Assembly (NCBI GenBank): GCA_019058295.1
Contig: JAHPZI010000030.1
Location: 96,001 to 160,000 of the forward strand
Direction: 5' to 3'
DNA: 64,000 nt
Source: Promethearchaeota archaeon
GTDB lineage: Archaea > Asgardarchaeota > Lokiarchaeia > Sigyniarchaeales > SOKP01
Below are positions 28,271 through 31,233 of this stretch, one piece after another. The notes below the pieces were generated by a model. It did not search any database. It had not been told where the DNA came from and saw only the letters and a program-made list of their open reading frames with translations. Positions within the stretch are counted from its first letter, which is position 1; every line of letters starts with the position of its first letter. Position numbers and translations under genes: made by a program.

Positions 28271-28570
28271 TTAGAAGAGAGAACCAATTCCAGTTGGCTC
28301 TGCTTCTGTTTCTTCCTCTTCCTTCTTTTTTTCTTTAGGAGCTTCTTTGGCGGCTTCAGCACCCCCACTAACAGATGTAGCCATTACTGGTGTTGCTGTT
28401 GCGGAAGCTATTATCTCATCAATTTTCTTTTGCTTTAAACCTGCAATTATTTTACTAATTTGAGATTTATCGGGTTCTACACCAGCAGCCGTCAGAACTT
28501 TTTCAATAGCCGCCTCTGTTATTTTTTTTGAAGCTGTATGAAGTAAGAGCGCCGCATATATACTTTCCAT
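28271..28570 (-). CDS. rpl12: Ribosomal stalk protein P1 (L12p)
   Basis: ME.IYAALLLH, acidic tail ending GIGSLF. Confidence 0.97.
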   Translation of the reverse strand: MESIYAALLLHTASKKITEAAIEKVLTAAGVEPDKSQISKIIAGLKQKKIDEIIASATATPVMATSVSGGAEAAKEAPKEKKKEEEETEAEPTGIGSLF

Positions 28571-28643
28571 ACTTCTTTACCTCTTTTTATTTTATTTTTT
28601 TCTATTGTTAGTTTTTTAATTTTAAATTTTTCATCTTAAATTC

Positions 28644-29543
28644 TCATCCAAATAGTCCTCCGATACCTGGAGCACTCTCCTCTTCTTCTTCTTCCTCATC
28701 TGGTTTTTCTTCCTCGGGTTTAACCTCCTCTTTTTTCAATGAAGATGTAATTCCACCTTCAAAAATTATAGTATTGATTATTTTTGCATCAAATACTGCT
28801 TTTTTAATATACTCATCTATCATTTCTTCAAGGAAAATAGGCAATTCAAAAAGAATTCCTAAAGCAGCTAAGTAGCATGATGCAACATCTCGTTGAAACG
28901 ATTCTATATCCATGTACAACGTATCTTCTGGTATTATTTCTCCATCACTCCATGCATAATGGATTTTAATTAACGATTCTATCGGTTTAATCCCAAGCTT
29001 TTTTAAAACTGCCGCCTGTTTAACATCTACAATATCTCCAGCTTTATGCGTTCTGGTCTTCTCGCGAATCCATATAGTATCGTTCTGAATACGGGTAGGT
29101 AATCGTAATGTCATATTTAGCTCCGAAATTACTTGTCCAGTAGGTAATCCTGTATCTCCAGCAGGAACCCAAATGTCTACGGGAGTGATTTCATCAGGTT
29201 TAGCAGGTACCATCCATTCACTCTCGTTGAAAATCTTTTTTAAATCAAATAGATTCATATTTGTAAAAACAAGACTTGATTGTCCAGGGATATTTTTCGC
29301 TAAATTATCAAGATTTGTTTTTTTTGACTGTTTTTTGTACTTTTCGATTGCTCTTATTTGTATACTCTTCTTAGACATTCGAATTTCCACTTTTCCTCTC
29401 AAAATCTTACGTGTATCTTGAATTTGCTTATCGTTAATACTCCCAACATTAATAACCGCAATATTTTTATATTTTTTAAATAAATCTACTAAGTATTCAA
29501 TTTCGTCTAATTTCCACTGTGGAATGTCCTTTTTTGATATCAT
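28644..29543 (-). CDS. rpl10: Ribosomal protein uL10 (P0)
   Basis: IPQWK, PAK....P.DI.VPAG.TG, LGIKP, tail GIGGLFG. Confidence 0.96.
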   Translation of the reverse strand: MISKKDIPQWKLDEIEYLVDLFKKYKNIAVINVGSINDKQIQDTRKILRGKVEIRMSKKSIQIRAIEKYKKQSKKTNLDNLAKNIPGQSSLVFTNMNLFDLKKIFNESEWMVPAKPDEITPVDIWVPAGDTGLPTGQVISELNMTLRLPTRIQNDTIWIREKTRTHKAGDIVDVKQAAVLKKLGIKPIESLIKIHYAWSDGEIIPEDTLYMDIESFQRDVASCYLAALGILFELPIFLEEMIDEYIKKAVFDAKIINTIIFEGGITSSLKKEEVKPEEEKPDEEEEEEESAPGIGGLFG

Positions 29544-29544
29544 T

Positions 29545-30276
29545 TTATTTCACCCCCAATGTCTCTAGATATTCATTATCTATCTTGATCGGTCGTCCCA
29601 TTGTAGTCTTAATAAACATCGATCTAAAGTTGTTATATTTATGAGGCATTTGATCTGCAACATAATCGACAATAGCTTTCATGTTTTCCAGAATTTTATC
29701 CATTTCCATTGATTTTTTGCCAATTTTTACCTGTAAAACTGGATTTTTTTTGACTATAATCCTAACAATTTTTTTGTATCTCTCAACAGCTACACTAAGA
29801 TCATCTATTGATGAAATAATTCCATATCCCGATGGAAAAGGTTTAGGCATTTTTCCAGAAGGCCCTAAAAATCTAGCCAAAAAACGAGCAACGTCGCGCA
29901 TATTCTTGTCTTCCACAACAAAAAAATCGTATTTTTTCACGAATTTTTTTTTGTCTTTCTTTTCTTCCCGATCCAAAGCTGCCAAACCATCTGGGTCAAG
30001 AGTATCCAATCCTATTTTTTTAGATTCTACTAATATCTCATCAGAAGCAATCACACATATGTTAGGTTTATCCTCTGTTATTACCTCGTTAGGCAATATT
30101 AATTCCTTGTCAATTCTCTGTTTTGGATCACTTAAATTAATATCCTTTAAGTTTATTATGAAATCAATAGTTTCGTCAAATTTGCGAATTTTATCTTTAA
30201 ATCCTTCTTTCTTTATAATCGAAAAGTCAATAGCAGCATTTAATGATTTTTTTAATAATTTATCATCAACTTTCAT
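29545..30276 (-). CDS. rpl1: Ribosomal protein uL1
   Basis: RKFDET.D, LGP.GKMPKP, IKTTMG. Confidence 0.96.
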   Translation of the reverse strand: MKVDDKLLKKSLNAAIDFSIIKKEGFKDKIRKFDETIDFIINLKDINLSDPKQRIDKELILPNEVITEDKPNICVIASDEILVESKKIGLDTLDPDGLAALDREEKKDKKKFVKKYDFFVVEDKNMRDVARFLARFLGPSGKMPKPFPSGYGIISSIDDLSVAVERYKKIVRIIVKKNPVLQVKIGKKSMEMDKILENMKAIVDYVADQMPHKYNNFRSMFIKTTMGRPIKIDNEYLETLGVK

Positions 30277-30279
30277 TTT

Positions 30280-30807
30280 TTACGATTCCTCCTTTATTTT
30301 ATCATCATATTCTCCATTGTCTATTCTCTCTTGAATGATTCTAGGATCCACACCCTCTACAGTTAGTCCTACGGATAAGGCTGTTCCTATTACTGTTTTA
30401 ACACAAGTTTTAAATGTCTTATCTAAAAAAATGTCTTTTTTAGCATTAGCTATTGAAATTATTTGGTCGAGTGTTAAATTGCCAATCTTGTCCTCCCCTG
30501 GATTTGAAGCCCCTTTCTCAACACCAACTTCTTTTAGCAATAATGATGCTGTCGAAGGAGTTTCTACAAATATTTCAAATTGCTTTGTTTCAGGATTGCA
30601 TTCAATCCTCACTGGAACAGTTAATCCTTTAAACATCATAGTTTGTTCATTTACAGCATCAACAACATCTTTGATATTAATCCCCGTAGGACCTTTGACT
30701 AAGTAATTCGAGTTGATTTACTTTACAACCGGTCCTATGGGAGGTCCCCCGCTTGCCGCTCCACCTTTCACCAGCGCTTGTACTACCACTATACCTTTTT
30801 CGCTCAT
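30280..30807 (-). CDS. rpl11: Ribosomal protein uL11, split gene: exon 1 30807-30725, exon 2 30694-30280 (165 aa spliced)
   Basis: Spliced MSEKGIVVVQALVKGGAASGGPPIGPVVGPTGINIKDVVDAVNEQTMMFKGLTVPV..; first gene of rpl11-rpl1-rpl10-rpl12; the ORF track only shows the C-terminal part. Confidence 0.93.
30695..30724 (-). other. 30-nt BHB intron in rpl11 pre-mRNA
   Basis: UAGGACC-GGUU-GU^A-AAGUAA..UUACUU-AGUC-AA^A-GGUCCUA forms a full helix-bulge-helix-bulge-helix; contains an in-frame UAA. Confidence 0.9.
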
Positions 30808-31047
30808 ATTTATCCTACAATTTTTTTTGTTATTTTTATTCAAAACCTGTTTCTAAAGGTCAAGGAACGCAAATAAAATGCTAACAGTATAATTTCTTAC
30901 TTTTCAATATCTTGACTATATTGAAACCGCTTTATTGCGTCCTAAGTCCTTCAAAAAAGATATTTTGAACTTAGTGTGTTGTAGAGTGAATTAAAATTAA
31001 AAAGTTTTATTAAAAATTTTCTTTAATTAGAAAAATAGGAATTGTAT

Positions 31048-31233
31048 TTAAAATTTGCAACATAATCTACGACCGTGGTCGAGATTGTTTCTTAAATATT
31101 CATTTGCTAAAATATCCATAACTTTATCATAATCGAGATTCAGTTTTTCCACAATATCTTCAATCTGAACTCCAGGTGTAGAGATTAATGTAAAAATTTC
31201 TTTTTTAATTTCTTCACTAACTTCTTCTGTCAT
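31048..31233 (-). CDS. Small HTH-like protein
   Basis: 61 aa, IEDIVEKLNLDYDKVMDIL helix-turn-helix pattern. Confidence 0.55.
   Translation of the reverse strand: MTEEVSEEIKKEIFTLISTPGVQIEDIVEKLNLDYDKVMDILANEYLRNNLDHGRRLCCKF

What the first reader, a model, noticed from the sequence alone, without database searches (positions are those of the whole stretch)
30695..30724. tRNA-type BHB intron inside the mRNA of ribosomal protein uL11
Seen in sequence: the minus strand reads GGA CCT CCC ATA GGA CCG GTT GT^AAAGTAAATCAACTCGAATTACTTAGTCAA^A GGT CCT ACG GGG. The insert holds an in-frame TAA, so the unspliced product is a 29-aa peptide. It folds into a complete hBHBh': exon-exon helix UAGGACC/GGUCCUA (extended by CCC/GGG after one mismatch), 4-bp central helix GGUU/AGUC, two 3-nt bulges GU^A and AA^A, and intron helix AAGUAA/UUACUU. 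Cutting after the second base of each bulge removes exactly 30 nt and gives GPPIGPVVGPTG, the correct length for the conserved GPPxGPxLGP motif, in a 165-aa uL11. Established: archaeal EndA cuts BHB motifs at those positions and RtcB ligates; the well-known archaeal mRNA intron is in crenarchaeal cbf5. Inference: this Asgard archaeon splices a ribosomal-protein mRNA with the tRNA machinery, paralleling eukaryotic HAC1/XBP1-type splicing. This could gate the rpl11-rpl1-rpl10-rpl12 operon. VV in place of the usual AL suggests exon codons co-adapted to the BHB. I know of no report of this intron but cannot verify novelty.
Basis: partly seen in the sequence, partly recalled or inferred. Interest (0 to 1): 0.96.

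Follow-up and report, generated by a model that had tools for sequence, protein, structure and literature searches.

The report
tRNA-type intron splits Asgard uL11 gene
The only ribosomal protein uL11 gene of this Asgard (Promethearchaeota) archaeon is interrupted by a 30-base insert shaped like the introns archaea cut out of tRNAs. Relatives carry such inserts at four different spots in the same gene, so the mRNA almost certainly has to be spliced, which papers I could search confirm for only one archaeal gene (cbf5).

Summary
On the minus strand, a 30-nt insert (30724..30695) with an in-frame TAA splits the genome's only detected uL11 gene. The flanks fold into a complete hBHBh' motif. Cutting after the second base of each bulge gives a 165-aa uL11.

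Comparative evidence is strong:
- Of 93 distinct Promethearchaeota uL11 genes, 37 carry 28-37-nt inserts at four sites within about 20 codons. Many are frame-breaking, and one gene has three.
- At the window's site, the 4-bp central helix pairs in 6 of 6 orthologues.
- Synonymous third positions in the exon-exon helix covary.
- dN/dS of the spliced genes is 0.06-0.11.
- The genome has two EndA paralogues, one catalytic-like and one lacking the catalytic His. RtcB is present in 8 of 9 congeners but was not found in this 79%-complete genome.

No RNA data reach the junction, so splicing is inferred, not shown. In the window's own allele, free-energy folding prefers an off-register fold.

The operon-gating idea is untested, and the patchy distribution argues against it. 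The VV co-adaptation remark is wrong in detail.

This scan has found similar BHB mRNA introns on other Asgard DNA. I class this one as a new member of a known kind (cbf5-type).

The parts
30725..30807 (-). uL11 exon 1 (ATG at 30807-30805; 27 codons plus the first 2 nt of a Val codon). It encodes MSEKGIVVVQALVKGGAASGGPPIGPV and the start of the junction Val.
   Evidence: purifying selection on the spliced CDS
30695..30724 (-). 30-nt BHB intron AAAGUAAAUCAACUCGAAUUACUUAGUCAA. It is in frame but carries TAA at 30720-30718.
   Evidence: The same site is occupied in G007, G004, G006, G002 and L078, with lengths of 30, 30, 28, 28 and 29 nt.
30280..30694 (-). uL11 exon 2 (third base of the junction Val codon, 137 codons, stop TAA at 30282-30280)
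   Evidence: Pfam Ribosomal_L11_N positions 21-58 and Ribosomal_L11 positions 2-69
30731..30737 (-). Outer helix h, 5' strand UAGGACC (exon 1). It is extended by CCC at 30739-30741 after one mismatch.
   Evidence: 7 pairs; third-codon positions covary
30727..30730 (-). Central helix H, 5' strand GGUU (exon 1)
   Evidence: H paired in 6 of 6 orthologues
30724..30726 (-). 5' bulge G-U^A. The predicted cut is between 30725 and 30724.
   Evidence: Read from the sequence. The rule of cutting between bulge bases 2 and 3 is as stated for cbf5 in PMC2738675.
30701..30723 (-). Intron hairpin h': AAGUAA (30723-30718) pairs with UUACUU (30706-30701). There are two inner pairs and an AACUC loop.
30697..30700 (-). 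Central helix H, 3' strand AGUC (intron)
30694..30696 (-). 3' bulge A-A^A. The predicted cut is between 30695 and 30694.
   Evidence: Read from the sequence; the spliced frame is restored.
30687..30693 (-). Outer helix h, 3' strand GGUCCUA (exon 2). It is extended by GGG at 30683-30685.
28271..30276 (-). Downstream genes of the same operon: uL1 (29545-30276), uL10/P0 (28644-29543) and P1/aL12 (28271-28570)

Best explanation
The 30 nt at 30724..30695 are an archaeal bulge-helix-bulge (BHB) intron inside the coding sequence of the genome's single uL11 gene.

Proposed mechanism:
1. In the pre-mRNA, the last 13 nt of exon 1, the intron and the first 8 nt of exon 2 fold into a strict hBHBh' motif.
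2. The tRNA-splicing endonuclease EndA cuts after the second base of each 3-nt bulge. Here EndA probably has an (alpha-beta)2 architecture, built from one catalytic and one His-less paralogue.
3. An RtcB-type ligase joins the exons and probably circularises the 30-nt intron.
4. The result is an mRNA for a normal 165-aa uL11.

Unspliced mRNA can only give a 29-aa peptide.

The intron is one of a dynamic set of 28-37-nt BHB mini-introns. In one family of Promethearchaeota these occupy four sites within codons 17-35 of uL11, with presence and absence varying between close relatives. The same genome has BHB-like inserts in other genes as well (argG, uS11). I think removal is most likely constitutive, and the intron a tolerated, possibly once-mobile passenger rather than a switch.

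Shown here: the sequence, the structural fit, conservation and covariation, selection on the spliced reading frame, and the presence of EndA.
Inferred: cleavage, ligation, circularisation and constitutive removal.
For: 1. The BHB cut rule removes exactly the insert defined independently by protein homology, and it restores a full uL11.

2. This is the only uL11 copy in the genome.

3. The same site is occupied in five other genomes by inserts of 30, 30, 29, 28 and 28 nt. The 28- and 29-nt versions shift the frame, so they cannot be read through.

4. On those six sequences, 98.4% of pair cells are standard pairs, against 16-54% when the partners are slid. The central helix is paired in 6 of 6 through GC/GU/AU exchanges. 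Four pairs change on both sides.

5. Three of those covarying pairs join synonymous third-codon positions of exon 1 and exon 2. Two of these positions pair in all 6 genes and the third in 5 of 6 genes with this intron, against 25-31% of 87 genes without it.

6. The spliced CDS is 498 nt in all five genomes compared. dN/dS is 0.06-0.11 wherever dS could be estimated (six of ten pairs; the other four were saturated). This includes pairs whose synonymous sites are about 50-70% different. The intron of G004 is 26/30 identical to the window's although pS is 0.62 (alignment).

7. Three further insert sites in the same gene all have a 4-bp helix flanked by 3-nt bulges, and the cut rule restores the frame. 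In total 37 of 93 distinct genes carry at least one insert, and one carries three.

8. Two EndA paralogues are present. One best matches the catalytic subunit of the Aeropyrum pernix heterotetramer (3P1Z_B, E = 4e-36). The other has Asp-Ser where the catalytic His-Ser sits. A 2026 preprint reports the two-paralogue pattern for 44 of 60 Asgard genomes (10.64898/2026.10.13.758758).

9. RtcB is present in 8 of 9 congeners.

10. Other genes of the same genome have inserts with in-frame stops inside a Pfam match. argG has a 30-nt canonical BHB that restores SGGLDTS. uS11 has a 30-nt insert.
Against: - No RNA evidence. The only RNA contigs, from a roughly 93%-identical relative, cover 30374-30663 and stop before the junction.
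- RtcB was not found in this genome, which is 79% complete.
- In the window's own allele the central helix has two G-U pairs. ViennaRNA prefers an off-register fold (UUG/CAA) by about 5 kcal/mol, with a probability near 0 for the H pairs. The same measure gives 0.97 in G007, about 0.85 in G004 and 0.4-0.5 in the other three. This allele may therefore splice less efficiently, or need the enzyme to capture a minor conformer.
- BHB-like geometry alone is common in this AT-rich genome (127 comparable sites).
- The six site-A sequences are related, so the covariation counts overstate the number of independent events.
Confidence: 0.88

Rival explanations
1. Programmed translational bypassing (a T4 gene 60-type hop). 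The ribosome takes off at Lys AAG (30723-30721), which is followed directly by UAA and lies in a hairpin. It lands on Lys AAA (30696-30694) and resumes at GGU CCU.
For: The window allele happens to have the ingredients: a take-off codon followed by a stop, a hairpin starting at the take-off codon, and a synonymous landing codon 24 nt downstream (read from the sequence).
Against: - The product would have an extra Lys inside the invariant GP-x-x-GP spacing.
- The 28- and 29-nt orthologous inserts have no stop after a matching take-off codon and no matched landing codon, yet they keep the BHB.
- The other three sites also obey the BHB rule.
- Covariation between exon 1 and exon 2 third positions is what an RNA helix predicts, not a hop.
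Confidence: 0.02
2. The gene is broken or decaying. The cell either lives with a truncated uL11 started at Met47 (ORF 30639-30280), or uL11 is supplied by a copy in the unassembled 20% of the genome.
For: There is an in-frame stop after codon 29. A 119-aa ORF starts at an internal ATG. The genome is only 79% complete.
Against: - dN/dS is 0.06-0.11 over the whole spliced CDS, including exon 1. All five spliced genes are exactly 498 nt.
- The insert site and structure are kept across species whose synonymous sites are near saturation.
- Congeners that are 98-99% complete (G006, G007) also have only the interrupted copy.
- Exon 1 encodes the most conserved part of the N-terminal domain.
Confidence: 0.02
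3. It is a real spliced BHB intron, but it acts as a regulatory gate. Splicing efficiency, limited by EndA/RtcB capacity or by the competing off-register fold, sets uL11 output and perhaps that of the downstream operon. This would couple ribosomal-protein synthesis to tRNA/rRNA processing.
For: - The window allele has a competing fold 5 kcal/mol more stable than the BHB.
- All four insert sites sit in the first 35 codons, so unspliced mRNA gives only short peptides.
- uS11 in this genome and rtcB in two congeners are also interrupted.
Against: - Presence and absence vary between close relatives. The congener G001 has no insert, and sister tips in the tree differ. The gene therefore works equally well without one.
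- In G007 and G004 the BHB is the dominant fold, with no competing switch.
- No data on expression exist.
- The downstream genes have their own start codons.
Confidence: 0.12
4. The insert is removed from the RNA, but not by EndA. Another endonuclease or a self-cleaving activity does it, and the BHB likeness is incidental.
For: There is no direct enzymology. The window allele's predicted fold is off register.
Against: - Inserts at all four sites, which have largely unrelated sequences, share just the EndA geometry: a 4-bp helix, 3-nt bulges on opposite strands, and a cut after base 2 that restores the frame.
- 30 nt is too small for a group I or II ribozyme.
- There is no Rfam match.
Confidence: 0.03
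5. Assembly or binning artefact.
For: The source-run contigs were filtered out of the read layout, so the window's own raw data could not be inspected (run X1 laid 0).
Against: Orthologous inserts occur in independent MAGs from different studies and isolates, including AMARA_1S, DZ2S.378, DZ1B.199, QM1B.325 and DZ2S.411.
Confidence: 0.005

Closest known systems
BHB intron in the cbf5 (pseudouridine synthase) pre-mRNA of Crenarchaeota (Desulfurococcales and Sulfolobales; Watanabe 2002; Yoshinari 2006; Yokobori 2009, PMC2738675)
   Same: - A short non-ribozyme intron inside a protein-coding sequence.
- A BHB motif built partly from exon sequence.
- Predicted cuts between bulge bases 2 and 3.
- A host with a hetero-oligomeric EndA.
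- Lineage-specific presence and loss.
   Different: - A different phylum (Asgard/Promethearchaeota) and a different gene (a ribosomal protein).
- The window's motif is a strict hBHBh', whereas most cbf5 introns are described as unconventional BHB (PMC2738675).
- There are four alternative sites within about 60 nt of one gene, and up to three introns per gene.
- cbf5 splicing has cDNA and in vitro support. This case has none.
Archaeal pre-tRNA introns, including non-canonical and multiple introns (Marck and Grosjean 2003; Asgard census preprint 10.64898/2026.10.13.758758)
   Same: The same motif, the same presumed enzymes and a similar size. ARAGORN calls tRNA introns of 13-54 nt in this genome. 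Dynamic gain and loss, and several introns per gene, are reported for Asgard tRNAs.
   Different: The host RNA is an mRNA. The exon half of the motif is made of codons, so it is constrained by the protein as well: only synonymous positions covary.
HAC1/XBP1 unconventional cytoplasmic mRNA splicing in eukaryotes
   Same: Non-spliceosomal endonucleolytic excision of a short intron from an mRNA, followed by joining with a tRNA ligase (RtcB in metazoa). The unspliced mRNA gives a different or no functional product.
   Different: The nuclease is Ire1, not the tRNA endonuclease. The substrate is a pair of 7-nt-loop hairpins, not a BHB. That system is a stress switch, and nothing here shows regulation. 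This is an analogy, not membership.
tRNA intron transposition in Thermoproteales (Fujishima et al. 2010; cited from memory, not read here)
   Same: Related short BHB introns appear at new sites. Here the uS11 insert of this genome is 21/30 identical to the window's uL11 intron, counted by hand.
   Different: A scan of 185,579 genomes for the intron core found only the uL11 orthologues and four matches in bacterial MAGs, which I take to be chance. Dispersal of this particular sequence is therefore not shown.

Membership tests
Archaeal BHB intron (EndA substrate) | [quoted passage not shown] | tested here: met
   GGUU/AGUC flanked by GU^A and AA^A. H is paired in 6 of 6 orthologues. Caveat: the thermodynamic ensemble of the window allele prefers another register.
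Archaeal BHB intron (EndA substrate) | Flanking helices h (exon-exon) and h' (intron) for the strict hBHBh' form | tested here: met
   h has 7 bp plus 3 more after a mismatch. h' has 6 bp plus 2 more.
Archaeal BHB intron (EndA substrate) | Cutting after bulge base 2 on both strands yields a functional joined RNA | tested here: met
   In silico only. The result is a 165-aa uL11 with contiguous Pfam domains. The same rule restores the frame for the 28-, 29- and 30-nt orthologues and at three other sites.
Archaeal BHB intron (EndA substrate) | The host encodes the splicing endonuclease EndA | tested here: met
   Two 201-aa paralogues over the Pfam cut-off. One is like a catalytic alpha subunit. 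In the other, the catalytic His position reads Asp (alignment by eye).
Archaeal BHB intron (EndA substrate) | The host encodes an RtcB-type ligase | tested here: inconclusive
   Not found in this 79%-complete genome. Found in 8 of 9 congeners.
Archaeal BHB intron (EndA substrate) | Spliced RNA and the excised (circular) intron observed | tested here: inconclusive
   The one read layout allowed showed RNA contigs of a relative on exon 2 only. None reached the junction.
cbf5-type archaeal pre-mRNA intron | A BHB intron located inside a protein-coding sequence of a live gene | tested here: met
   Single-copy gene. dN/dS is 0.06-0.11 on the spliced CDS.
HAC1/XBP1-type splicing | Cleavage by Ire1 at twin stem-loops with conserved 7-nt loops | tested here: not met
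   The cut sites lie in 3-nt bulges of a BHB, not in hairpin loops. I did not search for an Ire1 homologue.
Programmed translational bypass (gene 60 type) | Matched take-off and landing codons with a stop after take-off, conserved among orthologues | tested here: not met
   Present by coincidence in the window allele (AAG-UAA ... AAA). Absent in the 28- and 29-nt orthologues.

The most novel reading that the evidence does not exclude
One family of Promethearchaeota carries a large, evolutionarily dynamic population of EndA-type mini-introns in protein-coding genes. These genes include ribosomal proteins (uL11, uS11) and, in two congeners, the mRNA of the RNA ligase RtcB itself. uL11 codons 17-35 are a recurrent landing zone with four sites, where introns have been gained and lost repeatedly within genera. 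If so, routine mRNA splicing by the tRNA machinery, with ongoing intron turnover, exists in the closest prokaryotic relatives of eukaryotes. It would also link ribosome production to RNA-processing capacity.
Probability: 0.45. Interest if true: 0.9.

Novelty: new member of a known kind. Interest (0 to 1): 0.8.

Why it matters
The papers I could search confirm archaeal mRNA splicing only for cbf5 in Crenarchaeota. PMC2738675 states that no other gene had been confirmed. Searches for BHB or splicing-endonuclease mRNA introns in Asgard archaea found none.

- **Gene calling.** An essential ribosomal-protein gene that can only be read after tRNA-type splicing means that archaeal gene callers miscall such genes as truncated or split.
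- **EndA substrates.** It shows that the EndA/RtcB pathway has mRNA substrates in Asgard archaea.
- **A natural comparison series.** The four sites, the 28-37-nt lengths and the intron-free sister genomes allow study of how BHB introns are gained and lost, and how codons adapt to being half of a splicing motif.
- **Eukaryote origins.** It bears on whether interrupted protein genes predate eukaryotes, though by a mechanism unrelated to the spliceosome.

Tried and rejected
- **RNA evidence.** One search for runs and one read layout were allowed. The two RNA libraries held only 3-5% of the sampled words. Their contigs, from a relative, cover 30374-30663 and end before the junction. The source DNA run laid nothing because of a filter, and an independent DNA run left 30700-30762 uncovered. 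This says nothing for or against splicing.
- **Blind genome-wide search.** I tried three filters: strict hBHBh' geometry (16,881 hits), relaxed HBh' geometry (71,060 hits) with an ORF-repair test, and that test with a codon-usage score added. None gave more candidates with the correct cut rule than with the 3' cut shifted by 1-2 nt (671 against 688-750; 224 against 233-291; 125 against 126-165). The number of mRNA introns in this genome cannot be estimated this way.
- **Dispersed intron family.** A fuzzy search of the genome with the hairpin core gave 17 hits, against 12-23 for shuffled cores. Only uS11 and uL11 were close. An exact-pattern scan of 185,579 genomes found only the uL11 orthologues of G007 and G004 plus four matches in bacterial MAGs, which I take to be chance.
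- **Rfam and ARAGORN.** Rfam gave no match at 30100-31100. ARAGORN found no tRNA in the window.
- **G080.** An apparently broken uL11 outside the family turned out to be a contig end.
- **Translational bypass, pseudogene and artefact.** Considered and rejected; see the rival explanations.

Full report
**Observation**

On the minus strand, the uL11 gene starts at ATG 30807-30805. It reads MSEKGIVVVQALVKGGAASGGPPIGPVVK and stops at a TAA (30720-30718). Thirty bases (30724..30695) separate this from a continuation in the same frame, GPTGINIKDVV..., which runs to the stop at 30282-30280. Removing exactly these 30 nt gives a 165-aa protein. Exon 2 alone matches Pfam Ribosomal_L11_N from profile position 21, and Ribosomal_L11 in full.

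- exon-exon helix UAGGACC/GGUCCUA, plus CCC/GGG
- central helix GGUU/AGUC
- bulges GU^A and AA^A on opposite strands
- intron hairpin AAGUAA/UUACUU

The region folds better than all 200 shuffles (z = -3.99).

**Organism**

The window is G000:C30:96001-160000 of a 3.2-Mb, 79%-complete genome. Its nearest named relatives are Promethearchaeota MAGs such as AMARA_1S and TEKIR_6S, so "Asgard archaeon" is right. uL11 is single copy in this assembly.

**Comparative evidence: four insert sites**

This is what turns a plausible fold into a strong case. In the same genus, some genomes have an intact uL11 (G001). Others have one interrupted at the same place (G004, G007, G006, G002) or elsewhere (G005, G008).

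I collected 93 distinct Promethearchaeota uL11 N-termini. Of these, 37 carry at least one insert of 28-37 nt, at four sites within about 20 codons:

| Site | Position in protein | Genes with an insert |
|---|---|---|
| B | GGS^ASGG | 12 |
| D | PPI^GP | 11 |
| A (the window's) | GPxV^GP | 6 |
| C | GIN^IKD | 17 |

The combinations were A 4, B 5, C 11, D 9, AB 2, BC 4, CD 1 and BCD 1. Many inserts are not multiples of three, so they cannot be read through.

At every site, the rule [quoted passage not shown] restores the uL11 frame:
- Site A is a strict hBHBh'.
- Sites B and C are HBh' with little or no exon-exon helix.
- Site D has the exon-exon helix, the central helix (3-4 of its 4 pairs) and the bulges, but an offset intron hairpin.

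Such relaxed forms are the ones reported to need hetero-oligomeric EndA (PMC5829648 abstract; PMC2738675).

**Site A in detail**

The six sequences have introns of 30, 30, 30, 29, 28 and 28 nt. On the BHB structure, 98.4% of pair cells are standard pairs, against 16-54% when the 3' partners are slid by 1-3 columns. The central helix is paired in 6 of 6 while varying (GGUU/AGUC, GGCU/AGCC, AGCU/AGUU, GGCU/GGCU). Four pairs change on both sides.

Three of those pairs lie in the exon-exon helix and join synonymous third-codon positions. Examples are ATA...CCT against ATT...CCA, and GGA...GGT against GGT...GGA. Two of these positions pair in all 6 genes with the intron and the third in 5 of 6. They pair in 25-31% of 87 genes without it, and all three pair together in only 2%. 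The family norm is GPAVGP. The window's extra Val comes from a C-to-U change that weakens the central helix.

**The gene is alive**

All five spliced coding sequences I built are 498 nt. dN/dS between them is 0.06-0.11 wherever dS could be estimated (six of ten pairs; the other four were saturated), even where pS is 0.5-0.7. The G004 intron is 26/30 identical to the window's while pS between the genes is 0.62. The intron is therefore itself constrained.

**Distribution**

On a rough uL11+uL1 tree, inserts are confined to one crown clade and scattered within it, and sister tips often differ. In a sample of 161 Asgard genomes from 32 families, interrupted uL11 genes were found only in the window's own family. 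One apparent exception was a contig end. The single-contig genomes of the neighbouring family have none.

**Machinery**

The genome has two 201-aa EndA homologues.
- One best matches catalytic subunits of crenarchaeal heterotetramers (3P1Z_B, 3AJV_B, 2ZYZ_B) and keeps the Tyr...His-Ser...Lys pattern.
- The other is more divergent and reads Asp-Ser where the His-Ser sits (alignment by eye).

This fits an (alpha-beta)2 enzyme, as a recent preprint infers for most Asgard genomes. RtcB was not found in this incomplete genome but is in 8 of 9 congeners. ARAGORN tRNA genes and an intron in 10 of them; nine of those are 13-54 nt, and the tenth (2,114 nt in a "tRNA-Stop") looks spurious.

**Other interrupted genes**
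- In this genome, argG has a TGA inside its Pfam match. A 30-nt canonical BHB (GAUU/GAUC, 9-bp hairpin) removes it and restores SGGLDTS.
- uS11 has a 30-nt insert with a TAA. G009 has the same kind of insert, but six other congeners do not. Its BHB is off register and needs a 4-nt 5' bulge. Its sequence is 21/30 identical to the window's uL11 intron.
- In congeners G006 and G002, rtcB is split at GVGY^DINCG by a 29-nt BHB insert (UUGG/CCAA, 8-bp hairpin) that is absent from G007.

Earlier notes of this scan list further candidates in this genome (actin, iorB, MoxR, Sec61beta), which I did not test. They also record confirmed cases on other Asgard DNA.

**Weak points**
- No RNA read crosses the junction.
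- In the window's own allele, the central helix has two G-U pairs. ViennaRNA prefers an alternative pairing (UUG/CAA) by about 5 kcal/mol, giving the BHB helix a probability near zero. The same helix has probability 0.97 in G007, about 0.85 in G004 and 0.4-0.5 in the others.
- BHB-like shapes are common by chance in this AT-rich genome. My blind genome-wide scans showed no excess over shifted-cut controls.

**Rivals**

The window allele has, by coincidence, the ingredients of a gene 60-type ribosomal hop (AAG-UAA ... AAA). The frame-breaking orthologues lack them, and the product would have an extra Lys. Decay, artefact and a non-EndA nuclease are all poorly compatible with the comparative data.

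A regulatory role cannot be excluded, but it is not needed. Close relatives do without the intron, and in G007 and G004 the BHB is simply the dominant fold.

**Verdict**

This is a genuine BHB intron in an essential ribosomal-protein gene. It is very probably removed by EndA and an RtcB-type ligase. It is a new member of the kind known from crenarchaeal cbf5 (PMC2738675), in a new phylum and gene. One feature I did not find reported for protein genes in the papers I searched is that four alternative sites are used in one short stretch of the gene.

I found no paper reporting it. The library does not cover subscription journals.

Noticed in passing
L122 (G006:C13:33250-33600) and L123 (G002:C3:15780-16130); intron-free comparison L124 (G007): In two congeners the RNA ligase gene rtcB is itself split, at GVGY^DINCG, by a 29-nt frame-breaking insert. 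It folds as a BHB (H UUGG/CCAA, bulges AU^A and AA^A, 8-bp hairpin CAUAAAAG/CUUUUAUG). The ligase's own mRNA would need ligation.
   Followed up: partly
G000:C1:158644-159027 (minus strand; outside the window), locus L125: uS11 of this genome carries a 30-nt in-frame insert with a TAA. It is 21/30 identical to the window's uL11 intron and 22/30 to that of G004. Its central helix CAGC/GUUG fits only with a 4-nt 5' bulge (off-register BHB). The same +30 nt with a TAG is in G009, while six congeners are intact.
   Followed up: partly
G000:C2, around 55268 (minus strand; outside the window), locus L126: argG has a 30-nt canonical BHB insert (H GAUU/GAUC, bulges AG^A and AA^A, 9-bp hairpin) with a TGA inside the Pfam match. 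Removing it restores the SGGLDTS ATP-binding motif.
   Followed up: partly
Loci L032-L116, uL11 N-termini (list): By eye, about 36 of the 46 inserts at the four uL11 sites have a hairpin capped by a similar loop ending in YUCG (for example AUUUC-G, AUCUC-G, AAUC-G), although their stems differ. This could reflect shared ancestry or a constraint on the loop. It is not explained.
   Followed up: no
L111 (CAYPFJ010000040.1), uL11 N-terminus: One MAG has three inserts (sites B, D and C; 37, 36 and 28 nt) within about 20 codons of uL11. That would make a four-exon ribosomal-protein gene with micro-exons of 20 and 29 nt.
   Followed up: partly
G000:C30, about 56111 (minus strand), and G000:C2, about 59252 (plus strand): Two further strict hBHBh' candidates with GC-rich exon helices turned up in the genome scan. 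They are 32 nt and 28 nt long. I did not check them against protein homology.
   Followed up: no
window 30639-30280 (minus strand): Gene callers that ignore the intron would report a 119-aa (Met47 start) or 137-aa fragment as uL11. Public annotations of these MAGs probably contain such truncated uL11 entries.
   Followed up: no
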